A DNA stretch of 64,000 nt from an uncultured Nitrososphaerota archaeon (GCA_963718895.1 CAVRAG010000008.1:1408001-1472000), one strand, 5' to 3'; counted from the first letter of the stretch, positions 2,101 through 63,138 are shown. Notes: generated from the letters alone by a model not told the origin. Numbers and translations: made by a program.

Positions 2101-2123
2101 GTGTTCGCCGCGTCTCTGCTGGG
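2101..2123 (+). repeat. degenerate copy of the 23-bp dispersed motif
   Basis: gtgttcgccgcgtctctgctggg, 16/23 to consensus, intergenic. Confidence 0.5.
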
Positions 2124-2163
2124 AGACTGAAGCAATCGGCTAAGAACCCCGCCCGAGCCCATA

Positions 2164-2976
2164 ATGGATAAAAACGGAGGGGGAATTCGAGGCTTCCAGG
2201 TATTCAGCTTGCCATTCTGTCAGTCGTGTGGGGTGCAGGTGGAGAACGATGCCACCTTCTGCGGGGAGTGCGGGCGAGCCCTGAAATCGCCGGTGGGATT
2301 GACGCCACCCTCTAGCGTCCCGGTCCAGCAGCCTGCTCCTCAGCACTCCCAGCCCAGGAACCCCGGGCCGCCCTGGAGCACCGCCCTCGTACTGCAGAGT
2401 GGGGAGAGCGTGGCCTCCTACTGGGAAGCTGACCGCGAGATCGCTCAGGTGGGCGTGGTAAACGGTCGGAGTCAGATGGTCAAGGTGAGAGTCAAGGGTT
2501 ATCTGGTCCTGACCAGCCAGAGAATCATCTTCGTGAAGCAGCGCGGCGTCTTCGGCAAATCCTATCACATCGACACCTCAATCCCCCTGGAGGACCTGAG
2601 AGGGCTCTCCATGGGTGGGCTGATGATGAAGTATGTCTCGCTGGCCGATGCAGGTGACGAGAAGGTCTTCCACGTCCGCGGGGTAGGCGAACCCCAGTTT
2701 CCGGACTTCAGGGCCATGGTCCAGACACAGGTGGGCAACCGGCAGAAAGCGATGGACGCCGAGAGGAGGAGGGAGCACGTCCACATCATGCTGGACTTCA
2801 GCTTCCTGCGAGACTACATGAGCAAGGGTGGCCTCTCGCTCCAGGTCGTGAAGTGCCCCCAGTGCGGAGCGCCCATGACCCTTCCGCAGGAGGGAAACCG
2901 GGTGAAGTGCGACCACTGCGGCAGCACGGTGTTCGCCGAGGACATCATGGACAGGGTGAAGGAGCTGATCGGGTAG
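2164..2976 (+). CDS. zinc-ribbon / PH-like domain protein
   Basis: N-terminal CQSC..CGEC; GYLVLTSQRIIF PH-like strand; C-terminal CPQC..CDHC. Confidence 0.75.
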   Translation: MDKNGGGIRGFQVFSLPFCQSCGVQVENDATFCGECGRALKSPVGLTPPSSVPVQQPAPQHSQPRNPGPPWSTALVLQSGESVASYWEADREIAQVGVVNGRSQMVKVRVKGYLVLTSQRIIFVKQRGVFGKSYHIDTSIPLEDLRGLSMGGLMMKYVSLADAGDEKVFHVRGVGEPQFPDFRAMVQTQVGNRQKAMDAERRREHVHIMLDFSFLRDYMSKGGLSLQVVKCPQCGAPMTLPQEGNRVKCDHCGSTVFAEDIMDRVKELIG

Positions 2977-3013
2977 CAGATGCCCTGTAGCGAGAGGGGC
3001 CGATGGTAGGGTC

Positions 3014-3220
3014 TTGTCAACCAAGATTGAGGTCGGGGAGGAGACCCGCGCCGGGCTAAACCGCTACGCCTCCGCCATGAAGCAGAGGCTCGGTAGGAGG
3101 GTCACCTTCGACGAGGTGATAAGAGAGCTCCTGGAGAAGGAGGCTCAGAGACGGCCTGATTCTCCGATGCCAGAACGGCCGAGAGGGTGGCGCAGGGGCA
3201 AGGGCCTCCATCGAAGCTGA
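3014..3220 (+). CDS. small RHH / VapB-like DNA-binding protein with no adjacent toxin
   Basis: TKIEVGEETRAGL...VTFDEVIRELL pattern typical of archaeal antitoxin-like proteins. Confidence 0.55.
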   Translation: MSTKIEVGEETRAGLNRYASAMKQRLGRRVTFDEVIRELLEKEAQRRPDSPMPERPRGWRRGKGLHRS

Positions 3221-3268
3221 GTTCAGGCTCGGTCCGTGAAACGACTCGACCGTAGGCATTATCGAATA

Positions 3269-4614
3269 TCAGCGCGGTGCCACTGCTGTCAACTGAGGCT
3301 CCGGCACACGGGACAAGACGGGACGGAACTTCGCCCGAAGTCTTTCGGGCTTTTCGTAACTGATATTGACGACGGCGCCCCCACCCAGTTCCATCTTCAG
3401 CAACCGGACGAACTCGGCTGCGCCGGCGTGGCTCTCAGGGTCGTCGACGAATACTCTGAGAGTGAAGAGGTCCAGGGTCTCCTGCAGGAGCTGGACGCGT
3501 GGTAGGGCCTCGATGCCGTGCATCATCGTCATGATCTGTTTCGGAGAGATGGTTTCTCCGTTCCCGAGCCTGACTCAATCCACTGTTCTTCCCTCAACCG
3601 AGCGCAAGAGCGGAAGTGTTCTTCCACAGGAGCAGATCTCGTCCGATAGAACTCCGAGGTCGCCGAGCCTGTAGCGAATGATGGGCATCGCACCGTTCAG
3701 CAGTCCGGTCACCACTATCTCGCCCTGCTCGCCCGGTGAGGCGGGTTGTCCGTCCTTCAGCACCTCCACGATCAGCGAATCGGCGTTCACGTGCAATCCG
3801 CTCGCCGCAGTGCATTCGGCAGCGATCAGACCGACCTCGTTCGCCCCGTAGCAGCTGTAGACCCTGCATCCGAAGACCTTCTCGAAGTAGCGTCTGCTCG
3901 GCTCGTCCAACGGTTCGCCCCCGAGCGAGATGGCCCTGGGGTGGATTCCCGTCACGCCTCGTGCGACGACGGCGTCGGCCAGCATCCTGATGTAGGTGGG
4001 ACTTCCCCAGAGGAGATCGGGCCTGTGGCCGACAATCTGAGGCAGCACCTCTTCGATGCTGTACCCCATGTAGAGAATCTTGTTGAAGTAGTCTGAGATC
4101 CGGCCGGCGACCGGAGAGAAGAGGCCGAGCACGGTTCTCCGCCTTGGTCTGGGCTCGGCGTCCGGAGGGTCCGGGTCGTTGCCCGGGAGGGCGAAGAGTA
4201 TCACGGCGGTCCGGGTCATCGCCCCGAGGGCCTGCAGGCGCCTGACCCTGTACAGCCCGAGTGAATAGAAGTAGTCGGCGAACTCCTTGCTGTAGAAGAC
4301 GGGTAGCGGACCGCCCGTCGTGCCCGAGGTCGGCATCTTCAGGCATTTCTTTGGGTCCTCTGTCAGCCGGTCGTGCAGCGGCCCCTGCAGCAGGTCTTCC
4401 TTGGCGCAGACCGGGATCTTCGGAAGTCGCTCAGTCGGGTCACGTCGCCGGGCCCAAGGCCGGCTCCGTCAAGCCACTCGTGCCAGAACCGGGCATTGTC
4501 GTAGGCGTGGCGGACGATTGCTCTGAGCCTCCTCTCTTGAAGTTTCTCCATCTCTGCATGCGGCATGTGCTCGGCGAAGGGAGACCCTCGCTGCGCGAGA
4601 ATCCGGAGGAGCAA
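3269..4614 (-). pseudogene. phenylacetate-CoA ligase (PaaK/CapK-like) family gene, disrupted
   Basis: TSGTTG, YGANE, IRYRLGD and EGR motifs; 1-nt frameshift near 4423 and in-frame TGA at 3575-3577 with the frame continuing to 3269. Confidence 0.8.
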
Positions 4615-4683
4615 TCGGCCCTACTGTCGGCCCGAGTTATTTTAGCTCTTCTGGAGCCCGGTCCTGCCCGGACCGGGGCAGGC

Positions 4684-50394: not shown

Positions 50395-50487
50395 ACGGAT
50401 TCTCAGCCCACTGTGAGTTTGATGTCCCCCAAATGACGAATGGTGACTTGGCAAAAGATTAACTATTATGGCTTCGCTGAGTATTCA

Positions 50488-50976: not shown

Positions 50977-50998
50977 AGTTCGTGGCGCCTCCACCAGT
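50976..50998 (+). repeat. copy of the dispersed motif
   Basis: gagttcgtggcgcctccaccagt, 17/23, abuts the stop codon. Confidence 0.7.
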
Positions 50999-51200
50999 GC
51001 GTTCAGCTCGGGCCTATCTGCGTGTCCCATCGCCGCACGGACAACGGAGATGTTGAGCCGACCGAACAATAGAACCGGGACGCCTGACAGGCGGCGGAAT
51101 CTTGATGCGGCAAAGGCATCTCTTCGTGAACGATTGAGACAGGTGGGTGGCTTCGCAGGCTTAAATAACGAGCGTGGCAATTCGCCGCGATTCTCCAGTC

Positions 51201-52307: not shown

Positions 52308-52435
52308 CCATTTTCCCGAGTCGTCCTGCTCCTCAATCTCATCGAGACTGACTTGGCTGTGGGTCGACACATCTCTAGATTAGGTTGGAGCCTCTTGACA
52401 ATGCTTGGCTTCATCAGAGATTTCGGGCTGTCCTA

Positions 52436-52451
52436 GGGCTCATTGCGCCTC
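52436..52451 (+). repeat. copy of the dispersed motif (left part)
   Basis: gggctcattgcgcctc, 15/16, overlaps the GNAT stop codon. Confidence 0.8.
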
Positions 52452-53007
52452 AGGGGCGTTGCGTGGCATAGGTGGATAAATCGAGCCGCCAGTCATTGCA
52501 GCGCATGTGATGGCCGGGCGGGTACTCGAGGTCGAGCTCGCCGAGGAGTTCAAAGCCCAACTTTCTGCAGACGCCGTTGGAGGGGGCGTTGTCCACCGAC
52601 GGGGACGCGTGCACGAACCTGTTCCGCCCCTGTGAGCAAGCCTTCTCCATCGCCAACGAGGCACCTTTCGTGGCCACCCCCCGCCGCTGAAACTCCGGGA
52701 GCACGCTCCAGCCGACCTCCCAGACGGTCTCGTCCTTCAGCGGTCTCTCCCAGTACACGACCGAGCCCGCGGGAGCTGCTTCGCTCCCCAGCGTGACCAC
52801 GAAGACATGGGTCGTATCGGAGCCTGCGGCCTGAAGGTAACGGGCATGCCGCTTGCGAAGCTGCTCTGGTGTCTCCGGACCGCCGAGGTGTGTCATCATG
52901 GCCGGGTCGCCAAGCAGGCGCTCGAGCAACCAGAAGTCGCGTTCTGAGTAAGGTCTCAGAGCGACCTGCACCGGACCACCGAGATCCGCCGGACGGGACG
53001 CGACCAC
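52450..53007 (-). CDS. GNAT acetyltransferase, RimJ/RimL type
   Basis: EVGWSVLPEFQRRGVAT, NAPSNGVCRKLGF; TATA near 53035. Confidence 0.88.
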   Translation of the reverse strand: MVASRPADLGGPVQVALRPYSERDFWLLERLLGDPAMMTHLGGPETPEQLRKRHARYLQAAGSDTTHVFVVTLGSEAAPAGSVVYWERPLKDETVWEVGWSVLPEFQRRGVATKGASLAMEKACSQGRNRFVHASPSVDNAPSNGVCRKLGFELLGELDLEYPPGHHMRCNDWRLDLSTYATQRP

Positions 53008-53053
53008 ACCCGATAAAGAGAGTTTGCCGGTATTAAATTGGCCGCAGCGCCCT

Positions 53054-53076
53054 GGGTTCATAGCGCCTCCGCCGGG
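53054..53076 (+). repeat. best-conserved copy of the dispersed motif
   Basis: gggttcatagcgcctccgccggg, 22/23. Confidence 0.88.
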
Positions 53077-53089
53077 GATTACGGGCAGC

Positions 53090-53479
53090 CTAGATTTGGA
53101 AATGCTTCACGCGTATTTCTGTGACCTTCGTCAGAGCTTCGTCGGTGGTCAGAAGAGTCGCACCGAGCCTCTCTGTCAGAGCTGCGGCAAGGGCATCCGC
53201 CAATGATAGGTGGCTGTACCTGCATTTGTTCAATCCAGCAGACTCCGCCAGCTCCCCTTCTGCAACGACTTCCTCCAGAATGGTCTGCGTCTGATGAAAG
53301 CGGACCATGGCCGTCTCCCGGCCGAACTTCTGGCAGACCTTGTAGTAGAACTCCGCCAGGTTCGTCGAGGCGACATAGCCGTGGGCTCCGCCATCCTGAA
53401 TCTTTGCGAAGAACGGTTTGATTCGCTCGTCTCCCGCGTAGAACAGGGAGAGAGCGCCTGTGTCAATCACATACTTCAT
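53090..53479 (-). CDS. vapC: VapC PIN-domain toxin
   Basis: VIDT, NLAEF, LSLADA, LLTTD. Confidence 0.9.
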   Translation of the reverse strand: MKYVIDTGALSLFYAGDERIKPFFAKIQDGGAHGYVASTNLAEFYYKVCQKFGRETAMVRFHQTQTILEEVVAEGELAESAGLNKCRYSHLSLADALAAALTERLGATLLTTDEALTKVTEIRVKHFQI

Positions 53480-53724
53480 GGCTCGCGCGCCTCTCGCCTG
53501 TGTTCCTCCTTGAGCTCCCGGACGGCTTCCCTGAGGGCCTGGCTGCGTTCTCTGTCGATTCCGAACAGGGCGTCGATGGCGGGCACAGGAACCAGGACGA
53601 TCTCGGAGTCCTTCTCGATGAAGACTATCTTGCTGCCTGGCTTAATCCTGTAACGGGCCCTGAGGCGGGCCGGGATGTTTACCATGCTCTTGCTGGTCAC
53701 GGTAGCTGTTTCAGGCATAACCAT
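53476..53724 (-). CDS. vapB: AbrB/MazE-type antitoxin
   Basis: VTSKSMVNIPARLRARYRIKPG; 4-nt overlap with vapC. Confidence 0.88.
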   Translation of the reverse strand: MVMPETATVTSKSMVNIPARLRARYRIKPGSKIVFIEKDSEIVLVPVPAIDALFGIDRERSQALREAVRELKEEHRREAREP

Positions 53725-53760
53725 GCGAATTCACGAAAACCATGTATTAAAGCATACACA

Positions 53761-53780
53761 TGGTTCAGTCCCTTCGCCGG
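53761..53780 (+). repeat. degenerate copy of the dispersed motif
   Basis: tggttcagt--cccttcgccgg. Confidence 0.45.
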
Positions 53781-53872
53781 TCCATTTCATACACAAGTCG
53801 GACCACCCGGTGCGACGTACGGTGGTGGCCTGCCAAGAAAGTCTAAAAGTCTGAGCGTCAGATTCGCGTCTC

Positions 53873-54808
53873 ATGAGACAGCTTGACGCCCTCAAGTCGC
53901 CGCGGTTCACCCAGATCTCGACTTTTGCGAGACTCCCGCACACTCAGAATCTGAGGGGGGTGAGAGCGTGCTTCGTCGGGGTGCCCTTTGACGATGCTGT
54001 GACCTACAGGACGGGCGCGAGGTTCGGTCCCAGTTCGATCAGGCAGGCCTCGAGACTGTTGAGGCCGTACAACCCGTTTCTCGACGTATACCCGTTCGAT
54101 GAACTGAACGCCTGCGACTATGGCGACGTCAACATCATTCCAGGGTACACCGAAGACACGATGAAACTGGTCCAAGAGGAACTTACTACTCTTGCGAGGA
54201 AGACAGTTCCGTTCATAGCTGGAGGCGACCACTCGATAACGCTGCCGGTGCTTCGGACGATGCGCGCGATCCATGGAAAGGTCAACCTCGTCCACCTCGA
54301 CTCTCACTACGACTTTTGGAACAGCTACTGGGGGAAGAAGTACACGCACGGGACATGGCTCAGGAGAGCTTTGGAGGAGGGTCTGCTGAAAGAGGTCTTC
54401 CAGGTCGGGATCAGGGCCTCGCTCTTCTCGAAGGAAGACGTCAGAGATTCGGAGAGACTGAAAATCCACAGCTTCAACATCCGTGAAACGAAGCACAATC
54501 AGGCTAGAATCATCAGGGACATCAACGCCCTGAAGGGGAAGACCTACGTGTCGTTGGACATCGATGTCACGGACCCTGCCTTCGCGCCGGGGACAGGCAC
54601 TCCGGAAGTGGGGGGCCTCTCCAGCTTTGAACTGGTCGAGTTCGTGAGGTCCATGAAGCTCGATCTCGTCGGTTTCGACGTGGTCGAGGTCTCTCCACCG
54701 TACGATCTCAGCGAACTGACAAGCATGCTCGCCGCAAACCTGCTGTATGAGGGGATGAGCCTGCTGGCCAAGAACTCGGCCCGGAAAGGGCCGCGAAGCA
54801 AGAGTTAG
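53873..54808 (+). CDS. speB: agmatinase (ureohydrolase family)
   Basis: GARFGP, GGDHS, DSHYD, SLDID, PGTGTP. Confidence 0.88.
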   Translation: MRQLDALKSPRFTQISTFARLPHTQNLRGVRACFVGVPFDDAVTYRTGARFGPSSIRQASRLLRPYNPFLDVYPFDELNACDYGDVNIIPGYTEDTMKLVQEELTTLARKTVPFIAGGDHSITLPVLRTMRAIHGKVNLVHLDSHYDFWNSYWGKKYTHGTWLRRALEEGLLKEVFQVGIRASLFSKEDVRDSERLKIHSFNIRETKHNQARIIRDINALKGKTYVSLDIDVTDPAFAPGTGTPEVGGLSSFELVEFVRSMKLDLVGFDVVEVSPPYDLSELTSMLAANLLYEGMSLLAKNSARKGPRSKS

Positions 54809-54950
54809 CCAATCATCTCAAGGTGAAGGACTCGACAAGGGGAACTTGTGTGCTCCCGGGGGGGGTCAACCAGAGGGACGGATGTTCGACCAATCGAGTC
54901 GGCGACCTGCAAGGAGCCCTTCAGATTCAGGGAGACCTTTGCCACGCGTA

Positions 54951-54968
54951 GGCTTCATTGCGCTTCTG
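54951..54968 (+). repeat. copy of the dispersed motif
   Basis: ggcttcattgcgcttctg, 15/18. Confidence 0.7.
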
Positions 54969-55127
54969 AGCATCTCGATGAGAGCTCCTCAAGGTGGCCC
55001 TAAGACCTGACGAACATGAAGTCCATCTCGAACAATGGCAAGGGTCTGCACTCCAAAAACGACTGGTGAGCGGTATCTGGACAGACGGACGACTAGGATT
55101 GTGGTGGTGTCCCCGATCGGTGGCCGC

Positions 55128-55496
55128 TCAGGCGGAACCCTTCGCAACGAACTTGAGAGATATCGAATTGGCACAGTGCCTGGTGTTCTTTGCTGTGAAA
55201 CCCTCGTCAAGGAAGACGTGGCCCAGATGAGCACCACAGTTGGCGCACTCGATCTCCGTCCTGTCTCCGTCGGCGTCGGTAACTCTCTTGACCGAGCCCG
55301 GTATCTCGTCATCGAAGGCCGGCCACCCGCACCTCGCGTCGAACTTGTCTTCCGACCGATACAGGGGTGTCTCGCATCTCCTGCAGACATATGTCCCTGG
55401 CTTGAAGTTGTGCTCGTATTCGCCAGAGAAGGGCATCTCTGTTCCTTTGTGAACTATCACTTCTTCCTCTTCCGGAGATAGTTTGTTCATCTTCAA
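55128..55496 (-). CDS. msrB: methionine-R-sulfoxide reductase
   Basis: GTEMPF, CRRC, CGWPAF, CANCGAHLGHVF, RHCANS. Confidence 0.95.
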   Translation of the reverse strand: MKMNKLSPEEEEVIVHKGTEMPFSGEYEHNFKPGTYVCRRCETPLYRSEDKFDARCGWPAFDDEIPGSVKRVTDADGDRTEIECANCGAHLGHVFLDEGFTAKNTRHCANSISLKFVAKGSA

Positions 55497-55590
55497 TGGT
55501 CTCGCTTTCAGCTTTTCTGCGGCTCACTCTCTATTAAACGCACGTCGTGCAGCGCGGTTCTCGGAGGATGGGCAGGGATGGGCGGGTGCA

Positions 55591-55610
55591 GGGTTCATCG
55601 CGTCCCCGCC
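55591..55610 (+). repeat. copy of the dispersed motif
   Basis: gggttcatcgcgtccccgcc, 17/20. Confidence 0.75.
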
Positions 55611-55619
55611 TCACGTGGT

Positions 55620-55928
55620 CTAGGTCGTCGCGTCGGTATACCACCCGTCCGGGGAGCCGGCAAAGTTCTCCGGGCACGTGGTCGTTCGGCCGAGCCTGAA
55701 CTCGAGCCAGACCTTGTCTGTCCTCCGTGTGATCTTGACCACCTCGCCCTCCCAGGACTTCTCGGGAGTCCTCATCTCCTTGTCCACCTTGACGAAGACC
55801 GCCGGAGTATGGTCTGCCAGCCTCTCGGGGTTCATCACTGCGCCGCGGAGCATCGTGTATGGAAACGAGGAGACGTAGCCTACCCTGTCCCAGTGGTTCG
55901 GCCGGCTGGTGATCAAGACGTATCTCAA
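55620..55928 (-). CDS. hypothetical beta-rich protein
   Basis: Clean 102-aa ORF: NHWD, AVFVKV, EKSWEGEV, DGWY. Confidence 0.6.
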   Translation of the reverse strand: MRYVLITSRPNHWDRVGYVSSFPYTMLRGAVMNPERLADHTPAVFVKVDKEMRTPEKSWEGEVVKITRRTDKVWLEFRLGRTTTCPENFAGSPDGWYTDATT

Positions 55929-56129
55929 GGCGGGAGTCGCCCTCGCGGCAGGCCGGGTAGATAATGCTTCGAGGCGCTTCCAATTTCAAGGCGCGCCAGC
56001 TCCGCTGGGTTGGCAAAGATGTGGGCTTGACAATACACAGCGTTCATTGTCGGCCGGTGCAACTGGCCCGATAGGGTGCGAAAGACACCCGTCTTGGCTC
56101 AACCGGACGAACAACGGACGACTTCGGCA

Positions 56130-57758
56130 TCAGATCTGTTTCCCTATTCTTCGAAGCGCGGCTATCGAGCAGAACAGCAAGATTACTCCGACCTGGACGG
56201 CCACGAGCAGCAAGTACGAGGTAGGGAGAGATGTACTGGATGCTCCTATCGAGCTTGAGCTGGCAGACGACCCGGTTGAGGTGACGACAGAGGCGGACGA
56301 GGAGGCGGAGCTGGTCGGAGACGAGGTGGTGCTGGAGCTGGTTGTCGTGGATGTGACTGAGCTGGTGGTCGTGGATGTGGTCGACCCCGTCTTCGAACTC
56401 GTTGTTGTACTCGTTGTCTGTGCTCCAATGAGAGGCAGCGTATAGGATCCTGACTCCCGCCCCAGGTAGACATAGTTGGGGGTGCCCACTGATATGTTTG
56501 AGAACCCGTTGCCTGCATATGAGACCTGGAGGTTGTCGGCCGTCTCCCCTGTGTTTCCTCCGAAGCTGTAGTCGGACGGATATGCCGTCTGTGCGTCCGT
56601 GGTCGAGTTACCGTAGAAGAGACCTAGGGAAGCGCTGAGCTGCGTGAACTGGGTGGACTCCCCGTTCCCCTCCCCGCCGAAGACCAGCTCCGATTCGTAG
56701 AAGAGGCCGTCGGGGACTGTGGCGTTCCCTGAGACCTCGAAATAGGCGCTCTGAACGGAGGGATCGTGTATCGTTGCGTTGTCGAACCAGTTGATCGCTT
56801 GCACCGGCGCCGGCCCGTTATGAATCACCTGGACGCCGATCTGCAGCGTGACTCCCACACCCGGCACGGCAATCTCGCTCATGATCAGTGCCAGCTGTAG
56901 GGGTAGCGCGTAAGTGGTGTTCGAGGACTGGAAGGAATAGTAGTATCCAGGGTTCGCGGGGTAGGCGTACCCCCCATCCGCCGAGGTGATGGTCTTGTTG
57001 CTCAGGAACCCAGAGACGCTCCCGTTCCAGACATTGTCGGCCCATGAGACCTTCGAGGCTGCGGTGACGAAGTCGGGCGTGTTCTGAACCCAGTAGTTCT
57101 GTTGTTGACCTCCCTTCTCATTGACCACGAGGATCGAGTTCAGTTGGAGAGTCGCGCCAGAGACCGTGTCGTTATAGGATGGGGCCGACGCGTTGTAGGC
57201 TTGCAACGACGCAACGTCGGCAACGCCCACCACGTCGCTGCTCTCTACCGCGTATGGGGTTACCTTCCCAGAGTCATTGTAGAGCCCGAAGGCCGCGACG
57301 CCCGAGGGCTCGGGCGGGGTAAGCGGGTAGGCGAAGTACGGGCTGATGGGGAAGGTCTGAACGTCATAGCTCACGTTCGCGCTCCGTCCATAGGCGACGA
57401 AGAGGAGGTAGTACAGACCCTCCGAGACCTTCAAGGAGTGTTGGACAGTGGTGCCGTTCTGGAGAAATAGCGAGGCCGAGATATCGCTCACGCCGTTGTT
57501 GAAAGATGTGTACTGTGAGTTTGTCATGAGCGCGGTCGAGAGGCTCGTGTTGCTGCTCACAGCGAAGGAGATTGTCGTGAGAGTCGACGGTGCGGCGACC
57601 TCAATGGGCTGGTAGTAACCGGAGGGCAGGACCAATTGGTAGGGGAGGGGCGCGGTGGAGTGGGTAAAAGCTGCGACAGAGGCGACTGAGAATACGGGGG
57701 AGAGAAGAAGGAAGGCGAACGCTATTGACAGCCCGCCTGGTGCACGGCGCCTTTCCAT
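56130..57758 (-). CDS. thermopsin-family (A5) protease, membrane anchored
   Basis: TLQLN, YWVQN, DNVWN, ELVFGG, TGETA; Ser/Thr linker + C-terminal TM. Confidence 0.88.
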   Translation of the reverse strand: MERRRAPGGLSIAFAFLLLSPVFSVASVAAFTHSTAPLPYQLVLPSGYYQPIEVAAPSTLTTISFAVSSNTSLSTALMTNSQYTSFNNGVSDISASLFLQNGTTVQHSLKVSEGLYYLLFVAYGRSANVSYDVQTFPISPYFAYPLTPPEPSGVAAFGLYNDSGKVTPYAVESSDVVGVADVASLQAYNASAPSYNDTVSGATLQLNSILVVNEKGGQQQNYWVQNTPDFVTAASKVSWADNVWNGSVSGFLSNKTITSADGGYAYPANPGYYYSFQSSNTTYALPLQLALIMSEIAVPGVGVTLQIGVQVIHNGPAPVQAINWFDNATIHDPSVQSAYFEVSGNATVPDGLFYESELVFGGEGNGESTQFTQLSASLGLFYGNSTTDAQTAYPSDYSFGGNTGETADNLQVSYAGNGFSNISVGTPNYVYLGRESGSYTLPLIGAQTTSTTTSSKTGSTTSTTTSSVTSTTTSSSTTSSPTSSASSSASVVTSTGSSASSSSIGASSTSLPTSYLLLVAVQVGVILLFCSIAALRRIGKQI

Positions 57759-57910
57759 TGTTGTAGCTCAACCCTCAATGTATATACACACTTGGAATCG
57801 TCATCCCTCTGGCCGTTAAACGACCCTCTTCATGATGGATGCTCAGCCTGGCAGTCCTGAGCATATCGTGCTCTGTAACTTCGCTTAGCTATCGAATCTT
57901 ATCAATCGAT

Positions 57911-58765
57911 TCAGAACGCCGAGCCCGTCATGCGGTCGCTCAATTCCCACAGTTTCGTCGCTGCCGCTTCGTCGTATGACTGTTCGGACGACCTCTTTGG
58001 CTTGCACTTCTCGTAGTACTTCCCCGTGACGCCCTCGACCTCGGGCGACGATGCGAGGTAGACCGAAGTCTTCGCCCCTTCATCGGGGCTGAGCATGAAC
58101 AGAGCCGCCAGCCTCGTAAAGGGACTGAACACTCCCGCGTGAGACCAGATGTCCGTCCTGACCGCGCCCGGATGGAGGCAGTTCGCGGTGACCCCACTCC
58201 CCTGGAGCCGGCGCGCGAGTTCGTAGGTGAAGAGGATGAGGGCCAACTTCGACCTCCGGTAGGCACCGAGGCCGCCCGGTCCCATCTTCCCCCTGCCGTT
58301 GATGTTCTCGAAATCGAGTGATGCCCCATAGTGCCCACCGGAGGAGACGTTCACCACCCTCGACGGCGCACTCTTCCTGAGGGTGCTGACCAGAAGGTTC
58401 GTGAGGAGGAACTGCGAGAAGTAGTTCAGCGCCATCGTCCGCTCTATCCCGTCGTCGGTCTCCTTGTAGTCGATGAAGTCGGAACCCGCGTTGTTCAGCA
58501 GGACGTCGAGCCGGGAGCGCGTCGAGATGAACTCGGATGCGGCCCTCCGCACCTCCCTCTGGACGAGCATGTCAGCTATGATCAAATCCACGGCTCTGCC
58601 GGAGGAGGATGCGATCTCGGCGCGGGCCTTCTCGGCCTTCTCTCGGTTCCTGCAGAGCAGGGTCAGGTCGGCTCCCATCTTCGCCAACGACACCGCTGAG
58701 GCCTTGCCTATCCCAGAGTTCCCTCCGGTGATCAGGACGACCTTCCCTTCCATGGGCGAGGTCAT
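57911..58765 (-). CDS. short-chain dehydrogenase, retinol dehydrogenase-like
   Basis: TGGNSGIG, NNAG, YRRSK, HPGAVRT. Confidence 0.92.
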   Translation of the reverse strand: MTSPMEGKVVLITGGNSGIGKASAVSLAKMGADLTLLCRNREKAEKARAEIASSSGRAVDLIIADMLVQREVRRAASEFISTRSRLDVLLNNAGSDFIDYKETDDGIERTMALNYFSQFLLTNLLVSTLRKSAPSRVVNVSSGGHYGASLDFENINGRGKMGPGGLGAYRRSKLALILFTYELARRLQGSGVTANCLHPGAVRTDIWSHAGVFSPFTRLAALFMLSPDEGAKTSVYLASSPEVEGVTGKYYEKCKPKRSSEQSYDEAAATKLWELSDRMTGSAF

Positions 58766-58876
58766 TGATGTTGTTGAGGTCCGGCCGATGATAAAGGTTG
58801 AGCGAGGCCGCAATGATTCGTGACCTCCGCCCGCTTGTTTTGGCCGAGATGACGAAAGAAAGGCATGCCATGTATG

Positions 58877-58896
58877 AGGTTTGTTCCGCCTCCGCC
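58877..58896 (+). repeat. copy of the dispersed motif
   Basis: aggtttgttccgcctccgcc, 16/20. Confidence 0.65.
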
Positions 58897-58906
58897 ACGC
58901 TCCTAA

Positions 58907-59533
58907 CTACGGTATTTTGGTGTCTCGGAGCCGCCGACCCCGCGGAGATTGCAGGCCCTGTATCAGGGAGCTTAATCCATCCCTCCACACCTTCTTCGCC
59001 TCTGCCTTCTCGAGGCCCTGAAGGACGCTCACGATGACTCCATGGCGAAGCGCGACGACCACGCGGGCGACTGCGGTCGAATCGACCTCGCTAGAAATCT
59101 CCCCTTGCTCCTTGAGCCCGTCGATGAATCTTGAGATGATCTCCACATACCTGTCGTAGGTCTCTCCGACCATCTTCTGCAGGGTGGGGTTCCTCGGTGC
59201 CTCCGCGAGCGCCTCGAACATCAGGGCCCTCTCGCGCGTGTGCCTCTCCAGCTCGGCGTCCATGTGTTCCTCAGCCACCTTATGGAAGGCTCCGTCCGTA
59301 AAGCCTGACCTGAGGGCCTCCTCGAGTTCCCCGGCGTTGACGAGGCAGAGCTCCTGGAAGAGCTTCTCCTTGCTCTCGAAGTACTGGTAGACCGCGCCCT
59401 TGCTGACGCCTATGGCGCTCGCTATATCGTCCATGGTCGCCTCGTGGTATCCCTTCCGGGCGAAGACCTCGGCTGCGGTCGTGAGAATCCTCTTCTTCGC
59501 CTGCTCCTTGTACTCCGGAATCACCCTCGGCAT
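58907..59533 (-). CDS. TetR/AcrR family regulator
   Basis: FARKGYHEATMDDIA...SKGAVYQYFESKE; divergent from an MFS gene. Confidence 0.93.
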   Translation of the reverse strand: MPRVIPEYKEQAKKRILTTAAEVFARKGYHEATMDDIASAIGVSKGAVYQYFESKEKLFQELCLVNAGELEEALRSGFTDGAFHKVAEEHMDAELERHTRERALMFEALAEAPRNPTLQKMVGETYDRYVEIISRFIDGLKEQGEISSEVDSTAVARVVVALRHGVIVSVLQGLEKAEAKKVWRDGLSSLIQGLQSPRGRRLRDTKIP

Positions 59534-59638
59534 ATGTCCGCCGACGGGATTGGCGTTTATTTAAGTCTGATTCCCATGGTCGGAAAATATGCGTAAGGTA
59601 TTAATAGTTACTCTATAGTCGCTTTTGGAAGAGCGAGT

Positions 59639-61120
59639 TTGGAGACAGTCACGACGCTGAAGTCCCCTGAACTAGGCGCCAAGGGAACGTCCAACCACCA
59701 ACTCCGCACGCTTCTAGCGATGGCCAGCGTCGCGCTTCTGCTCAACTACGTCGAGACCATGGTCATCCCTGGGGTGCCCACCATCCAGAAGGATTTCTCC
59801 ACGACGTCGAGCTTGGTCTCTTGGATTACCTCGGGCTTCCTCATCGTCGGCAGTGCGGTCTCCCCGCTGATGGGGAAGCTGGGTGACAGCTACGGGAAGA
59901 AGCGGATGTTCCTCGTCGCACTCGTCTTCTACACGGCTGGTGTGGGCCTCGCCGGCTTCTCGCCCTCGATTTACTTCCTGATCGCGGCCAGGGCTGTGCA
60001 GGGCATAGGGTTCGCGGTCATCCCGCTGGCGCTGGCGATAATCTCCGAGGTCTTCCCCAAGGAGAGGATAGCCATGGCGCAGGGCATAATTAGCGCGACG
60101 TTTGCTATCGGCGCGGCCGCTGGCCTCGTGCTGGGCGCGTACATCGTCCAGGACATCGGGTGGCAGTGGGCCTTCCATTCGGCCTTCGTCGTCAGCGTCG
60201 CCCTCTTCTTTGTCATGGCCAGGGTGATACCCATTGGCTCTCAGGGTACAGGGCGGAAGGTCGACTACAGCACCATCGGCATGCTGATGGCGGGCGTCTC
60301 CCTGGCGCTGCTCTACCTGACAGAGGGACCCTACCAAGGATGGTACTCGTGGTACGACCTGGTGGCGCTTGCGACCGGGCTGGCACTGACCGTCGGCTTC
60401 TTCGTGGCGGAGGGCAGGAGGGAGAACCCCCTGATTCCGCCCAAGCTGCTGGCGATCAGGAACGTCCAGGTCGCCAACGGGGTCGGCGTCATCTCGGGGA
60501 TATCCATGTTCCTGCTCTTCTTCGCCGTGACCTACTATACACAGCTACCCAAGGCGTTCGGAGGCCTCGGACTGAGCGTCATCTCCTCCGGGCTGACCGT
60601 GGCGCCCGCGACGGTCCTGATGCTCGTCGCCGGGCCGGTGATGGGCAGGATGGTCTCGAAGGTCGGCCCCAAGCCCATAATCATCCTGGGAGCCCTGATA
60701 GGCATCGCAGGGAGCCTCCTCTTCGTCTTCAACCGGGGCACCTCCCTGGATGTGACGATAGACGCGGCTGTCTCGCTGGTCGGGGCCGTCTCCGTAATCA
60801 TACCCATCGTGAACATGGTCACCATCTCACTCCCCCGGGAGAGCGTGGCGACCGGACTCGGGCTCAACACGATGCTCAGGAACATCGGAGGCGCCCTGGG
60901 CCCAGTCCTGGCGACGACGATAATGAGCACCTACACGCTGAACGTCCCCAAGGGGCTGGCGCCGCCCGGGCTCTCCCTGCCCTCGGCCGCAGCCTTCGAC
61001 TACATCTTCTACTTGGGTGCCGCTGCCCTGGTCGTGGCAATACTGCTCTCACTGGCGGCGAAGAACTACACCTTCCCGACGCCTGAGAAGCCTGCGCTTC
61101 ACACAGAAGAAAAGCCATGA
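59639..61120 (+). CDS. MFS transporter, 14 TM
   Basis: GKLGDSYGKKR, RAVQGIG, GWQWAF. Confidence 0.92.
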   Translation: METVTTLKSPELGAKGTSNHQLRTLLAMASVALLLNYVETMVIPGVPTIQKDFSTTSSLVSWITSGFLIVGSAVSPLMGKLGDSYGKKRMFLVALVFYTAGVGLAGFSPSIYFLIAARAVQGIGFAVIPLALAIISEVFPKERIAMAQGIISATFAIGAAAGLVLGAYIVQDIGWQWAFHSAFVVSVALFFVMARVIPIGSQGTGRKVDYSTIGMLMAGVSLALLYLTEGPYQGWYSWYDLVALATGLALTVGFFVAEGRRENPLIPPKLLAIRNVQVANGVGVISGISMFLLFFAVTYYTQLPKAFGGLGLSVISSGLTVAPATVLMLVAGPVMGRMVSKVGPKPIIILGALIGIAGSLLFVFNRGTSLDVTIDAAVSLVGAVSVIIPIVNMVTISLPRESVATGLGLNTMLRNIGGALGPVLATTIMSTYTLNVPKGLAPPGLSLPSAAAFDYIFYLGAAALVVAILLSLAAKNYTFPTPEKPALHTEEKP

Positions 61121-61175
61121 TTTGTAATCGGCAGTTTTGTCCTCAAGAGAATTCGTCGATCAAGAGGAGGGGAAG

Positions 61176-61559
61176 TCATACATGAGGTTCATTGCGCTTG
61201 CCATGTCGACTCCTAGGCGTTCTTCCAGCCGTGAGCTTTCCTGCTTCCTTGAGAATCCGGATCACCTCGGTCTCATCGATATCGGCCGAAGGCTCGACGG
61301 ACACGTGGCGCATGCCCCTTCCGGTTCCTTCCAAGAGAGTGGAAGAAATTTGCGCGCCATACATCAGGTACAGGTTGACGTGCCTACTGTATTCTGCTAT
61401 GGACGCCACCCCGACTCCGTTGAACGTATAGTAGGGGACGTTCCACTTTATCGCCTCAGGGACCCCCGGCAAGGCCTTCTTCACCAATGAGCGGAGCTCC
61501 TCGAACTGGCTCCTCAGCTTCGGATCGACCTTGGAGATGTAGGCGTCAACGTCAGACAT
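61176..61559 (-). CDS. DUF1801 family protein
   Basis: VDAYI, EAIKWNVPYY, LLEGTGRGMRHV. Confidence 0.85.
   Translation of the reverse strand: MSDVDAYISKVDPKLRSQFEELRSLVKKALPGVPEAIKWNVPYYTFNGVGVASIAEYSRHVNLYLMYGAQISSTLLEGTGRGMRHVSVEPSADIDETEVIRILKEAGKLTAGRTPRSRHGKRNEPHV
61185..61198 (+). repeat. copy of the dispersed motif inside the 3' tail of the DUF1801 ORF
   Basis: aggttcattgcgct. Confidence 0.65.
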
Positions 61560-61561
61560 GG

Positions 61562-61579
61562 AGGTTCGATGCGCCTGCG
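61562..61579 (+). repeat. degenerate copy of the dispersed motif
   Basis: aggttcgatgcgcctgcg, 14/18. Confidence 0.5.
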
Positions 61580-61658
61580 TGATACTTTAGGATTCGGAAT
61601 CAGCCGGGCCCTCATGTCCCCTGCGACTGCTGTGGGTCAGGGACGGCAGCCACGTGTG

Positions 61659-61681
61659 GGATTCACTGCGCCTCCGCCGGT
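61659..61681 (+). repeat. strong copy of the dispersed motif
   Basis: ggattcactgcgcctccgccggt, 20/23. Confidence 0.85.
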
Positions 61682-61783
61682 CCGTCTCATCCAGGTTTCC
61701 TGTCCATCTCTCAGAGGTTTCAACGACATGGAACGGCGGCGATGCGATAGTTATTTATGAGGCGGGGGTCACATTAGGAACTG

Positions 61784-62200
61784 ATGCGTTCCTGTCCCTA
61801 CTGCGGCGCCGTCGTCGAGTCTGCACCCAGCGCAGGCACAGCCTCAATCGAGGAAGGCGGCAAGGTCGCAACGAGAGCGATGGAGCACTATGCTTGCCAG
61901 GCGTGCGGCCGCAAGTTCGGAGTAATCAAGGGAAGAACTGAGAGTGTGTTGATCCCGGCGAAGGTCGTGGAAGAGATGCGGACCCGCCTGGAACGGGCCC
62001 TCGCAAACAACGAATCGCTGCGGAAGAAGGCCAGCCAGCTCGCAAACGAGACCAGGAGCCTCAAGGCCTCATTGAAGACAGCTCGCGAGACGGCCTACTC
62101 CAAGTCTCTTCGGAGCAGAATGACGGAACTCGAGCGCCATGTCGAATCCCTGAGAAAAGAAAAGGGACGGCTGGAAGAGCAGCTCGCGCTGATGGGGTAA
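61784..62200 (+). CDS. zinc-finger + coiled-coil protein
   Basis: CPYC..CQAC, then a heptad-rich helix. Confidence 0.65.
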   Translation: MRSCPYCGAVVESAPSAGTASIEEGGKVATRAMEHYACQACGRKFGVIKGRTESVLIPAKVVEEMRTRLERALANNESLRKKASQLANETRSLKASLKTARETAYSKSLRSRMTELERHVESLRKEKGRLEEQLALMG

Positions 62201-62207
62201 GCCCCTA

Positions 62208-62462
62208 TCAGTTGGACTGCGGCGAGGAGAGCTCTGCGTCCGAGGACAGACGCACAACCCGATCTTCCAGCGCGGTCTTCTCTATCCTGAGTGACTGGAC
62301 CTGGCTCTCGAGCGAGGATGCGTTCCGCTCAAGTGTCTTGATAGTGATTGTCTCGTTCAGGGATTCGATGTCTCCTTGCAGTGCCGACCGTTGTTCTTCG
62401 AGATGCCTTATCCGGTCCTCGAGCTGGCTCTTGGTGTCTACGAATGGCGTTATGGTCTCCAT
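62208..62462 (-). CDS. small coiled-coil protein
   Basis: METITPF...LEDRIRHLEEQRSALQGDIESL heptads. Confidence 0.6.
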   Translation of the reverse strand: METITPFVDTKSQLEDRIRHLEEQRSALQGDIESLNETITIKTLERNASSLESQVQSLRIEKTALEDRVVRLSSDAELSSPQSN

Positions 62463-62663
62463 ATTTCCTCGGATGATGCTGGAATGACGTATGTAATACC
62501 AAGTAGGCTCGGAAAGTCTTGATTCAGTGGTGAAGTAGTGTGCAGCAACCTTTCGGAGCGGGGCTGACAAGTCCTGAACGGAGCCAGGTTGACCAATGTT
62601 GAGCTCTTGGGGCCGGCGTGTTGACCGCCTCGATTAATCCGTGACAGGCGCGGAGCTGCCAAC

Positions 62664-63011
62664 GTGCGCGAACAAGATCCGGCGATGATGCGGATGTTCA
62701 TAGACTCCGCCAAGAGAATCTCGCTGGACTACGCTCGGGTCTCTCAGGCTCTCGACTCCAGGGAGACTGCTCGAAGCCTGAGCGCCCTCACTCACCCTGT
62801 GTCGCTCAATGGTGCGATCAGGACCGCGGGCGTGGCGCTGGCCCTTGCGCCGGAACCGTTCACCACGGCTGCCGGGCTCGCGATGATTGCTGGTTCGTGC
62901 CTTATGAAGAGTCGGGAGCCCGCCAGCCTGGCAGGCCTCGAACGGGAAGCCGCGTCGGTACTGGGAGACCTCTCTTCGCTGTCCCTCGCGGACCTGTCGA
63001 TCTCGCTGTAA
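62664..63011 (+). CDS. hypothetical protein with hydrophobic hairpin
   Basis: AGVALALAPEPFTTAAGLAMIAG. Confidence 0.6.
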   Translation: MREQDPAMMRMFIDSAKRISLDYARVSQALDSRETARSLSALTHPVSLNGAIRTAGVALALAPEPFTTAAGLAMIAGSCLMKSREPASLAGLEREAASVLGDLSSLSLADLSISL

Positions 63012-63121
63012 CTTGCCGGTCTTCACATCAAGGCGGACTGATGACGCCTCACGTCGTGGGACCGGAGGAACTTGGTCCACGTGGTGCCGTGGCCTTTGAA
63101 GGCGGTGTTCCGCCGCAAAAA

Positions 63122-63138
63122 CGGTTCATTGCGCCTCC
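63122..63138 (+). repeat. strong copy of the dispersed motif
   Basis: cggttcattgcgcctcc, 16/17. Confidence 0.8.

What the first reader, a model, noticed from the sequence alone, without database searches (positions are those of the whole stretch)
2101..63138. Co-oriented ~23-bp repeat bounds unrelated genes: candidate archaeal gene-cassette array without attC sites
Seen: about 26 copies of consensus GGGTTCATTGCGCCTCCGCCGGG. The strongest are at 33758, 41618, 44720, 48252, 50373, 52436, 53054, 55591, 61659 and 63122. Others are at 2101, 5587, 12361, 13879, 29144, 30816, 32097, 41012, 43081, 46508, 50976, 53761, 54951, 58877, 61185 and 61562. Every convincing copy is on the + strand and at a gene boundary. 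They sit between convergent (33758, 41618, 48252), divergent (44720, 50373) and tandem (41012, 53054) genes, so they do not behave like promoters, operators or terminators. In the right half they cut the DNA into units of mostly 1-3 functionally unrelated genes, several with a visible TATA box. Known: integron attC sites are longer palindromes with co-oriented promoterless genes, and CRISPR repeats have short regular spacers; neither fits. Inference: these are scars of repeated site-specific integration that built a tandem cassette array. The recombinase is not in this window.
Basis: partly seen in the sequence, partly recalled or inferred. Interest (0 to 1): 0.92.

Follow-up and report, generated by a model that had tools for sequence, protein, structure and literature searches.

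The report
Gene-cassette array anchored to 23S rRNA
The repeat marks the worn far end of a 126-kb chain of about 75 swappable gene cassettes that starts at the end of this soil archaeon's 23S rRNA gene and reuses a piece of the rRNA's own processing signal as its joining site, which resembles an integron but is built from different parts.

Summary
The repeat is real, but only about half of the 26 listed copies hold up: 14 are supported, 1 is marginal and 11 are at background level. The window contains only the degenerate far end of a much larger structure. In the whole genome, 79 co-oriented copies span C8:1441758-1568039. The first copy lies exactly at the 3' end of the 23S rRNA gene.

The 17-nt core (GGAGGCGCAATGAACCC on the rRNA strand) is the 3' strand of the bulge-helix-bulge motif in the 23S processing stem. 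The right arm of the repeat is the last ~25-45 nt of 23S itself.

Four other long-read genomes of the genus (possibly also among the 22 counted next) show the same layout, with 13-55 copies, all co-oriented. The core occurs in 20 of 22 genomes of the genus. Whole cassettes recur within and between genomes with different neighbours, and homology breaks at the cores. Cargo includes toxin-antitoxin pairs, acetyltransferases, cyclases and oxidoreductases.

I found no IntI, no attC-like hairpin and no dyad symmetry.

Best reading: serial site-specific integration at a site taken from the 23S trailer. The enzyme is unidentified. One tyrosine-recombinase clade is a weak candidate. An RNA-splicing role for the repeated half-motif is not excluded.

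The parts
33758..33780 (+). Most distal convincing repeat copy. Its reverse complement is the rRNA-strand form.
   Evidence: 2 mismatches to the 23-mer. Profile hit 33725-33780, E=0.0038.
41618..41640 (+). Repeat copy.
   Evidence: Core at 3 mismatches. Profile hit 41587-41641, E=0.014.
44720..44742 (+). Repeat copy.
   Evidence: Core at 1 mismatch. Profile E=6e-7.
48252..48274 (+). Repeat copy.
   Evidence: 2 mismatches to the 23-mer. Profile E=1.8e-4.
50373..50395 (+). Degenerate repeat copy that includes part of the left arm.
   Evidence: Profile hit 50307-50407, E=0.0025.
50976..50992 (+). Degenerate core copy.
   Evidence: Core at 3 mismatches. No profile hit.
52436..52452 (+). Core copy without the right arm.
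   Evidence: Core at 2 mismatches.
53054..53076 (+). Best copy in the window.
   Evidence: 1 mismatch to the 23-mer. Profile E=0.0011.
54951..54967 (+). Repeat copy.
   Evidence: Core at 3 mismatches. Profile hit 54905-54967, E=2.6e-4.
55591..55607 (+). Degenerate core copy.
   Evidence: Core at 3 mismatches.
58877..58899 (+). Degenerate copy with a left arm.
   Evidence: Profile hit 58812-58897, E=0.0087.
61185..61201 (+). Repeat copy.
   Evidence: Core at 3 mismatches. Profile E=0.021.
61659..61681 (+). Repeat copy.
   Evidence: 3 mismatches to the 23-mer. Profile E=4.2e-5.
63122..63138 (+). Repeat copy.
   Evidence: Core at 1 mismatch. Profile E=0.0033.
33758..64000 (-). Distal ~30 kb of the cassette array. 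The array continues to C8:1568039, the 3' end of the 23S rRNA gene. Cargo here comprises two luciferase-like monooxygenases, an ABC-2 permease, an AsnC-type regulator, a PLP decarboxylase, DUF885, an adenylate cyclase-TPR protein and a GNAT acetyltransferase.
   Evidence: Pfam scan. Array extent. The 3-gene unit at 37364-40393 is duplicated at 82% identity inside the dense array.
24019..24846 (+). Aldo/keto reductase gene that marks the conserved chromosomal flank beyond the distal end of the array.
   Evidence: Pfam PF00248, 192.6 bits. Its DNA (80-85% identity) lies at or just beyond the distal end of the arrays in G041, G043 and G044.

Best explanation
The repeat is the joining site of a very large chromosomal gene-cassette array. 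The array is anchored at the 3' end of the single 23S rRNA gene of a soil archaeon. Its relatives carry titles such as Nitrososphaerales, Thaumarchaeota and 'Candidatus Gagatemarchaeum'.

Shown:
- The array runs from the 23S 3' end (C8:1568000) for 126 kb. It holds 76-79 co-oriented copies spaced at a median of about 0.9 kb.
- The 17-nt core is identical to the native 23S 3' trailer. There it forms the 3' strand of the bulge-helix-bulge (BHB) processing motif.
- The optional right arm copies the last ~25-45 nt of 23S. The optional left arm copies further trailer sequence.
- The segments between cores move as units within and between genomes.

Inferred:
- Circular cassettes carrying an attP-like copy of this 23S-end/trailer segment are inserted and excised by a site-specific recombinase that exchanges strands inside the core. 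This is the way integrative elements use the 3' ends of tRNA genes.
- Repeated insertion, mostly near the 23S-proximal head, stacks cassettes. Distal sites then decay, which is why the copies in the window are poor.
- The enzyme acts in trans. One clade of tyrosine recombinases with intact R..HxxR..H..Y residues is a weak candidate. Its representative here is C8:1190965-1192347, outside the window.
For: Anchor and identity of the repeat:
- Rfam places the LSU rRNA at L012:8000-12001(-). The first repeat core is at C8:1567973-1567989.
- The 23S 5' leader pairs with the trailer over the core as GGGUUC-GCGC-AAG / GCGC-AAU-GAACCC. The predicted leader-trailer duplex has an energy of -114.5 kcal/mol.

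Same layout in relatives:
- Every copy is co-oriented and downstream of 23S: 79/79 in G000, 41/41 in G041, 45/45 in G043, 55/55 in G045 and 13/13 in G044.
- G042 has only the native copy.

Distribution:
- The core occurs in 20 of 22 genomes of the same genus and in 2 of 2 other genera of the family. In 16 other families it is at chance level, 0-1 hits.
- A 22-mer scan of GTDB species genomes hit at least 112 stretches. Nearly all listed titles are Nitrososphaerota MAGs or unclassified archaeal MAGs; one is bacterial.

Cassette behaviour:
- 9 duplicated segments lie inside the array; in the 5 whose boundaries I aligned, identity starts at one core and stops in the next.
- Whole-cassette matches between G000 and G041 reach 95% over 841 of 841 nt, 94% over 667 of 667 nt, 90% over 751 of 759 nt and 89% over 622 of 625 nt. 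Their neighbours are not homologous.
- The arms travel with their cassette.

Decay away from the head:
- Repeat score falls with distance from 23S in 3 of 5 genomes (rho -0.36 to -0.38, p 0.0005-0.018).

Candidate enzyme:
- 4 of 10 members of the clade have a same-orientation core 0.25-4.5 kb downstream of their stop codon. None of 23 more distant paralogs does.
- Two gene fragments in G041 also lie within 0.5 kb of solitary copies.
- A 26.7-kb island flanked by two direct copies carries this recombinase together with mobile-element genes.
- The catalytic residues are conserved in 8 of 8 aligned members.
Against: - No recombinase gene lies at either end of the main array or inside it. Pfam scans of the flanks and of the 18.7-kb gap found none. 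tblastn with 5 integrases against the six fetched rRNA-downstream regions (about 420 kb, five of them arrays) gave no hit.
- 6 of 10 members of the candidate clade have no repeat within 0.6-5 kb.
- The clade also occurs in families f19 and f11. G048 (f19) has no array behind its 23S.
- G041, a single 2.25-Mb chromosome with 41 cassettes, has only fragments of this clade and one other PF00589 hit.
- The site has no dyad symmetry; 50 of 200 shuffles do as well.
- The crossover point rests on only two informative SNP pairs.
- ORF orientation is only about 60-65% co-directional by a crude coding score, unlike classical integrons.
- The genome is a MAG, 80.5% complete with 5.4% contamination.
Confidence: 0.6

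Rival explanations
1. No dedicated recombinase exists. The 60-190-nt copies of the 23S end and trailer are substrates for general homologous recombination. This recombination loops cassettes out, re-inserts the circles at any copy, and duplicates or deletes units.
For: No recombinase is found in or beside the main arrays. The repeats are long and similar enough for homologous recombination. Arrays persist in G041, which lacks an intact candidate integrase. The site lacks dyad symmetry.
Against: Conservation is concentrated in a 17-nt core, while both arms are optional and much more variable. Many cassettes share only the core, which is too short for efficient homologous recombination. The arms stay linked to their cassette in duplicates instead of becoming mosaic. 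This model also does not explain how new genes acquire the site.
Confidence: 0.15
2. The repeated element works at the RNA level. Each copy is an intact 3' half of the 23S BHB splice motif, so it can pair with the single 5' half in the 16S-23S spacer, either in cis on read-through transcripts or in trans. The splicing endonuclease and RNA ligase could then join the rRNA-promoter leader to a chosen cassette, or release cassette-sized RNA circles. Such circles might even be copied back into DNA.
For: The core spans exactly H2'(4 nt)-central helix GCGC-bulge AAU-H1'(6 nt) of a canonical BHB. Only the 3' half is amplified; the leader half occurs once in the genome even at 3 mismatches. All copies in the main arrays share the direction of the rRNA operon. 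Within the core, the two most variable internal positions are bulge nucleotides 9 and 11. The two informative SNP pairs place the cassette boundary at the bulge, where cleavage is expected. BHB cleavage followed by ligation of the flanking leader and trailer is described for archaeal pre-rRNA (PMC10351888, passages read). Group II intron reverse transcriptases exist in the genome.
Against: Substitutions at helix positions show no bias toward pair-preserving changes: G->A occurs 35 times over 5 sites, against 45 tolerated transitions over 7 sites. The native trailer and the long-arm cassettes carry a T-rich, terminator-like run just after the core. About a third of predicted ORFs point the other way. 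Secondary clusters exist away from any rRNA gene and in mixed orientation. The DNA-level mobility still needs a DNA mechanism.
Confidence: 0.12
3. It is an ordinary integron or CALIN. Its attC sites and IntI were missed because this lineage's versions are divergent.
For: The array architecture, the single-gene units and the cargo (toxin-antitoxin pairs, GNAT acetyltransferases) resemble sedentary chromosomal integrons and the archaeal integrons of PMC9668308 (sections 6, 7 and passages read). The right arm contains GTTGGGC, which fits the R' consensus GTTRRRY as I recall it.
Against: GTTGGGC is simply the 23S 3' end, and it has no R'' partner within the unit. 8 of 8 folds are no better than shuffles. 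The best match to the integron-integrase model scores 33.8 bits against a cut-off of 265. The head of the array is an rRNA gene, not intI/attI.
Confidence: 0.03
4. It is a non-mobile regulatory or architectural motif, for example a terminator, promoter, operator or strand-biased chromosome signal such as KOPS or Chi.
For: There is a strong strand bias and intergenic placement.
Against: The copies are confined to a few clusters instead of following replichores. The sites sit between convergent, divergent and tandem genes. Units bounded by the motif are duplicated and exchanged between species.
Confidence: 0.02

Closest known systems
Sedentary chromosomal integrons (for example the Vibrio superintegron, recalled) and archaeal integrons/CALINs (Ghaly et al. 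2022, PMC9668308; sections 6, 7 and passages read)
   Same: Both are long chromosomal arrays of mostly 1-3-gene cassettes separated by one homogeneous, co-oriented site. The cargo is rich in toxin-antitoxin pairs and acetyltransferases. Cassettes are shared and shuffled between related genomes. Sites are better preserved near the head of the array.
   Different: The site is not a hairpin-forming attC but a copy of the 23S rRNA 3' end and processing-stem strand. The array head is an rRNA gene rather than intI/attI. No IntI was found. Genes point in both directions. On one contig the array has 76-79 sites, compared with a maximum of 12 reported for archaeal integrons.
Tandem accretion of integrative elements at the 3' ends of tRNA/tmRNA genes by tyrosine recombinases (archaeal cases reviewed in PMC8371274 and PMC6563490; passages read)
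   Same: The att identity block overlaps the 3' end of a conserved stable-RNA gene and the sequence just downstream. Direct repeats flank each inserted unit. Several units stack at one locus.
   Different: The target is a 23S rRNA gene and its BHB trailer; the word 'rRNA' occurs 0 times in either review. The stacked units are about 75 tiny cassettes with no integrase of their own, rather than a few plasmids or proviruses.
Archaeal BHB-dependent pre-rRNA processing and BHB-based splicing (PMC10351888, passages read; split-tRNA trans-splicing, recalled)
   Same: The core is a canonical half of the 23S BHB: a 4-bp central helix, a 3-nt bulge and flanking helices.
   Different: Here only the 3' half is present, copied about 80-100 times between protein-coding cassettes. 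Nothing comparable is described in the papers I searched.
Xer/dif-dependent mobile modules (IMEX elements, pdif modules; recalled)
   Same: Short conserved chromosomal sites bound modules that carry no recombinase of their own, and a host enzyme would act in trans.
   Different: No dif-like 11-6-11 dyad is present. All sites are in direct orientation, and the site is an rRNA trailer.

Membership tests
Integron (IntI/attC) | An integron integrase carrying the IntI-specific domain | tested here: not met
   TIGR02249 searched on the whole genome gave a best score of 33.8 bits against a cut-off of 265. The MAG is 80.5% complete, so absence is not proven.
Integron (IntI/attC) | attC site: an imperfect palindrome that folds as a single-stranded hairpin with paired R''/R' and L''/L' boxes | tested here: not met
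   8 of 8 DNA folds (4 copies, both strands) gave z-scores of +0.34 to +1.64 relative to shuffles. No dyad symmetry was found. The only GTTRRRY-like word is the 23S 3' end, and it has no partner. The IntegronFinder attC model could not be run.
Integron (IntI/attC) | An array of promoterless, co-oriented cassettes downstream of attI and Pc | tested here: inconclusive
   All sites are co-oriented. By a crude coding score, ORFs split 94 co-directional to 50 opposite in G000. The head of the array is the 23S gene.
Integrative elements at the 3' ends of stable-RNA genes (tyrosine-recombinase att sites) | An att identity block that overlaps the 3' end of the RNA gene and is repeated directly at each element boundary | tested here: met
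   The right arm equals the 23S 3' end, and the core and left arm equal the trailer. Units are bounded by direct copies.
Integrative elements at the 3' ends of stable-RNA genes (tyrosine-recombinase att sites) | An integrase encoded by the element next to its att site | tested here: not met
   The main arrays gave 0 integrase hits across the six fetched rRNA-downstream regions, five of them arrays. The feature is met only for the 26.7-kb island at C8:1189536-1216205 and for 4 of 10 members of the candidate clade.
Xer/dif-type site | Two inverted ~11-bp arms around a 6-8-bp spacer | tested here: not met
   The best arm match was 6 of 8, which 50 of 200 shuffles equalled.
BHB-bounded archaeal intron | Both BHB halves flanking the excised segment on one transcript | tested here: not met
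   Only 3' halves are repeated. The 5' (leader) half occurs once in the genome at up to 3 mismatches.
CRISPR array | Short, regular, non-coding spacers between the repeats | tested here: not met
   Spacing ranges from 316 to 18761 nt with a median of 890 nt, and the intervals contain genes.

The most novel reading that the evidence does not exclude
The cassette system is coupled to the archaeal RNA-splicing machinery. Each of the roughly 80-100 copies is a working 3' half of the 23S bulge-helix-bulge motif. Each copy could pair with the single leader half, so that the splicing endonuclease and ligase would splice the rRNA-promoter transcript onto alternative cassettes. They could also release cassette RNA circles that seed new insertions. 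Under this reading the cassette boundary would be an RNA splice site rather than, or in addition to, a recombinase crossover.
Probability: 0.12. Interest if true: 0.97.

Novelty: new variant of a known kind. Interest (0 to 1): 0.85.

Why it matters
If this reading holds, a widespread group of acid-soil and peat archaea keeps about 4% of its genome (126 kb of 3.1 Mb here) in an integron-like store of exchangeable genes. That store is built on a different site and a different anchor from integrons.

It would be the first cassette platform tied to an rRNA operon. It would also be by far the longest contiguous cassette array reported in Archaea: 76-79 sites on one contig that also carries the 16S and 23S genes, compared with 12 in the published survey.

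The finding gives a concrete sequence with which to search for the recombinase. It provides a marker for tracking gene flow among uncultured soil Thaumarchaeota. It also offers a natural test of whether an RNA-processing motif can double as a DNA recombination site or as an alternative splice acceptor.

Tried and rejected
- The integron-integrase model found nothing above its cut-off.
- Pfam scans of ORFs at the array head, in the 18.7-kb gap, upstream of the rRNA operon and at the distal flank found no recombinase.
- tblastn with five integrases against the six fetched rRNA-downstream regions (five of them arrays) gave no hits.
- tRNA searches in the window and flanks found none.
- A viral-contig scan for the core returned 4 contigs that carry the bare 17-mer without arms and without an integrase match. 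I judged these to be chance hits.
- Sequencing runs: no RNA holder was listed, and two soil DNA runs held 5-6% of the sampled words. Laying them gave only short contigs sitting on repeat copies. There were no joints, so nothing can be said about excision or splicing.
- Mapping the crossover from SNP linkage over all homologous pairs was swamped by arm-only matches and left only two informative pairs.
- The test for pair-preserving substitutions in the core showed no RNA-type signal.
- The conserved ATG just after the core opens an ORF of at least 50 aa in only 19 of 131 cassettes, so it is not a shared start codon.
- An early idea that GGAGG in the core is a ribosome-binding site was dropped for the same reason.
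- The 220-aa ORF between the candidate integrase and its core looks spurious and is not conserved.
- No copy of G048's own 23S trailer lies near its integrase.
- Literature searches for an rRNA-anchored cassette array or for 23S as an archaeal integration target found nothing.
- The supplements of PMC9668308, which list the MAG with 107 attC sites, could not be read and might bear on novelty.

Full report
**The observation**

The consensus 23-mer matches the window four times at up to 3 mismatches, always on the + strand. None of 100 shuffles gave a match. I read all 26 listed sites.

The conserved part is a 17-nt core, GGGTTCATTGCGCCTCC. It occurs 12 times in the window at up to 3 mismatches, all on +. 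A profile built from 56 copies outside the window recovers 11 window copies at E<=0.021 and one at E=0.93.

Of the 26 listed copies, 14 hold up, one is marginal, and 11 are no better than background. All of those left of 29 kb fall in the last group. At exactly 4 mismatches the genome has 63 hits on + and 49 on -.

**The window holds only the tail of the structure**

The window is C8:1408001-1472000 of a 3.13-Mb, 11-contig MAG. The MAG is 80.5% complete with 5.4% contamination.

- Genome-wide, the core at up to 3 mismatches occurs 97 times on + and 10 times on -.
- Of 107 profile hits, 87 are on C8 and all 87 are on +. About 80 of them lie in C8:1437091-1568039.
- To the right of the window the copies become denser and nearly perfect.
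- Smaller clusters lie at C8:1189464-1222558 (5 copies, all +) and C4:263538-300966 (11 on +, 7 on -).

The full repeat is longer than 23 nt. It has three parts:
- an optional left arm: ...CTCTAGCC...GATGCCGTAAAGAAAGGCAGTGCCATGTATA
- the core
- an optional right arm: GCCGGGGCATTTCATCCACACGTTGGGCTATRG

**What the repeat is**

Rfam places the archaeal LSU rRNA at C8:1568000-1572001 and the SSU rRNA at 1572203-1573702, both on the minus strand. The first copy of the repeat has its core at 1567973-1567989, so it sits exactly on the 23S 3' end.

Read on the rRNA strand, the parts correspond as follows:
- The right arm is the last ~25-45 nt of 23S (...CTATAGCCCAACGTGTGGATGAAA).
- The core is GGAGGCGCAATGAACCC in the 3' trailer.
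- The left arm is further trailer sequence, including a T-rich run.

The 23S 5' leader in the 16S-23S spacer reads GCCATGCATAGGGTTC-GCGC-AAG-CATCCGCCGGGG. It pairs with the trailer CCCCGGCGGAG-GCGC-AAT-GAACCCTACACATGGC. This gives a 4-bp helix flanked by two 3-nt bulges on opposite strands, which is a canonical bulge-helix-bulge motif. The predicted leader-trailer duplex has an energy of -114.5 kcal/mol.

BHB cleavage, circularisation of pre-rRNA and ligation of leader to trailer are described for archaea (PMC10351888, passages read). Only the 3' half is amplified here. The leader half occurs once in the genome even at 3 mismatches.

**The same layout in relatives**

The core at up to 2 mismatches occurs in 20 of 22 genomes of the same genus. 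The two without it are 57% and 76% complete. It also occurs in both other sampled genera of the family (12 copies and 1 copy). In 16 other families of the order it is at chance level, 0-1 hits. The reversed-pattern control also gave 0-1 hits.

An exact 22-mer scan of one genome per GTDB species hit at least 112 stretches. Nearly all listed titles are Nitrososphaerota, Nitrososphaerales or Thaumarchaeota MAGs or unclassified archaeal MAGs, including 'Candidatus Gagatemarchaeum stordalenia'. One hit on a 5.6-kb contig of an Acidimicrobiales MAG may be a binning error.

In five long-read genomes the 23S gene was located and its downstream region fetched. Every copy is co-oriented with the rRNA operon, and in the four genomes with arrays the first copy abuts the 23S end:
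- G041: 41 of 41
- G043: 45 of 45
- G045: 55 of 55
- G044: 13 of 13 in the 20 kb fetched
- G042: only the native copy

Three of these handles show coordinates identical to genus handles listed earlier. They are therefore not additional to the 22 genomes above.

The native core and leader are identical in all six genomes. G065, from another genus of the family, has at least 8 copies behind its 23S. G046 (same family) has only the native copy. G048 (another family) has a different trailer and no repeats in the 20 kb fetched.

An aldo/keto reductase gene at window 24019-24846 lies at or just beyond the distal end of the arrays in G041, G043 and G044. It marks the old chromosomal flank.

**The units are mobile cassettes**

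A self-comparison of the array finds nine duplicated segments. In the five duplicated pairs whose boundaries I aligned, identity begins at a core and ends inside the next one. The sequence beyond differs, and each arm stays with its cassette.

Between species, whole cassettes match end to end:
- G000 cassette 13 and G041 cassette 18: 95% over 841 of 841 nt
- cassettes 44 and 32: 94% over 667 of 667 nt
- cassettes 37 and 22: 90% over 751 of 759 nt
- cassettes 61 and 28: 89% over 622 of 625 nt

All four pairs have non-homologous neighbours on both sides. Their order is only partly colinear.

Repeat quality declines with distance from 23S in three of five genomes (rho -0.36 to -0.38). There is no trend in G043, and G044 was sampled too little. 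This fits newer insertions near the head of the array.

**Cargo**

The window cassettes encode two luciferase-like monooxygenases, an ABC-2 permease, an AsnC-type regulator, a PLP decarboxylase, DUF885, an adenylate cyclase-TPR protein and a GNAT acetyltransferase.

In the dense array, all five small overlapping gene pairs I tested include a PIN-type toxin domain:
- three PIN toxins each paired with a MazE/AbrB-type antitoxin
- one PIN_2 toxin whose partner matched no family
- one DUF433 plus DUF5615 pair

Larger genes include GNAT, cyclase and NHL-repeat proteins, and several have no family match.

By a crude coding score, 94 ORFs run with the rRNA operon and 50 run against it in G000. The other genomes show similar ratios. 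About a third of the co-directional ORFs (84 of 259) stop inside the next core or within 60 nt upstream of it.

**Not an integron in the strict sense**

- The integron-integrase model scores 33.8 bits against a cut-off of 265.
- Eight single-strand DNA folds of four copies have z-scores of +0.34 to +1.64. They fold no better than shuffles.
- The consensus has no dyad symmetry; 50 of 200 shuffles do as well.
- The only GTTRRRY-like word is the 23S end.

The archaeal integron survey reports canonical attC sites, at most 12 on one contig, and does not mention Nitrososphaeria in its main text (PMC9668308).

**The enzyme is not identified**

No recombinase gene lies at the array head, in the 18.7-kb gap, upstream of the rRNA operon or at the distal flank. 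None lies inside the six fetched rRNA-downstream regions, five of them arrays.

One lead exists. A 461-aa tyrosine recombinase at C8:1190965-1192347 lies 1.4 kb from a solitary full copy of the repeat. It sits at one end of a 26.7-kb island that is flanked by two direct copies. The island also carries a second recombinase, an ArdC-like protein, nucleases and two group II intron reverse transcriptases.

Evidence for and against this lead:
- Among its closest relatives, 4 of 10 have a same-orientation core 0.25-4.5 kb past their stop codon. None of 23 more distant paralogs does.
- Two gene fragments in G041 also lie beside solitary copies.
- The clade keeps R..HxxR..H..Y in 8 of 8 aligned members and has a shared C-terminal extension.
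- Against it, six close relatives have no copy nearby.
- The clade also occurs in families that lack the repeat.
- G041 keeps 41 cassettes without an intact member of the clade.

**Mechanism**

The layout is what serial integration would leave. Circles whose attP-like segment mimics the 23S end and trailer would integrate by strand exchange inside the core. Each cassette then starts with trailer-like sequence and ends with 23S-like sequence. I take this as the best reading, with confidence 0.6.

General homologous recombination between the repeats is the main DNA-level rival (0.15).

The RNA reading (0.12) rests on these points:
- The core is precisely a BHB half.
- All array copies share the direction of the rRNA operon.
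- The two most variable internal positions are bulge nucleotides.
- The two informative SNP pairs place the boundary at the bulge.

Against the RNA reading:
- Helix positions show no pair-preserving bias.
- A terminator-like T run follows the native core.
- Many genes face the other way.

No RNA data could be found.

**Novelty**

The following sources do not describe rRNA genes as archaeal integration targets, or any cassette array tied to an rRNA operon:
- the family's genome paper (PMC10640624, term search)
- the survey of thaumarchaeal integrated elements (PMC6563490)
- the review of archaeal tyrosine recombinases (PMC8371274)
- four further full-text searches

I rate the finding as a new variant of a known kind: an integron-like cassette platform with a different site, anchor and, probably, enzyme. 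It would become categorically new if the splicing link proves real.

Noticed in passing
L012:8000-12001 (= C8:1568000-1572001), and the relatives: The 23S rRNA genes are longer than the 2987-nt Rfam model and vary widely in length: 4002 nt here and 2970-5144 nt in five relatives. This suggests insertions or introns inside 23S.
   Followed up: no
C8:1189536-1216205 (L014, L179): A 26.7-kb island is flanked by two direct copies of the repeat. It holds two divergent tyrosine recombinases, a PLD-like nuclease, an RNase H-like/metallophosphatase protein, an ArdC-N-like protein and two group II intron RT/maturase/HNH genes of 584 aa each.
   Followed up: partly
C4:263538-300966: A second cluster of 15 repeat copies (11 on +, 4 on -; three more minus-strand hits lie elsewhere on C4) sits on a contig where the Pfam search and the integrase tblastn found recombinase matches only about 165 kb away, near C4:99 kb. 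It may be a rearranged piece of an array.
   Followed up: no
C8:1338882-1340213 (L002:946-2280, minus strand): This is a 444-aa tyrosine recombinase with a SAM-like N-terminal domain and a C-terminal zinc ribbon. Its first ~35 codons recur at three other loci (70-76% identity), which I suspect, without a test, to be tRNA-like sequence. A HerA/VirB4-like ATPase lies next to it. It is probably a separate tRNA-targeting integrated element.
   Followed up: partly
window 37364-40393 versus C8:1524412-1527443: A three-gene unit, including an ABC-2 permease and an AsnC-type regulator, is duplicated at 82% identity. One copy is in the window's tail of the array and the other is in the dense part.
   Followed up: partly
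L034 (DATLTI010000252.1, 5.6-kb contig): One exact 22-mer hit lies in a MAG titled Acidimicrobiales bacterium. It may be a mis-binned archaeal contig (not checked).
   Followed up: no
C8:1488111 right arm: The 23S-like arm of one G000 cassette resembles the 23S 3' end of another species (G045 type, ...GGGTGATTATCCCC...) more than G000's own. This hints at transfer of cassettes between species.
   Followed up: no
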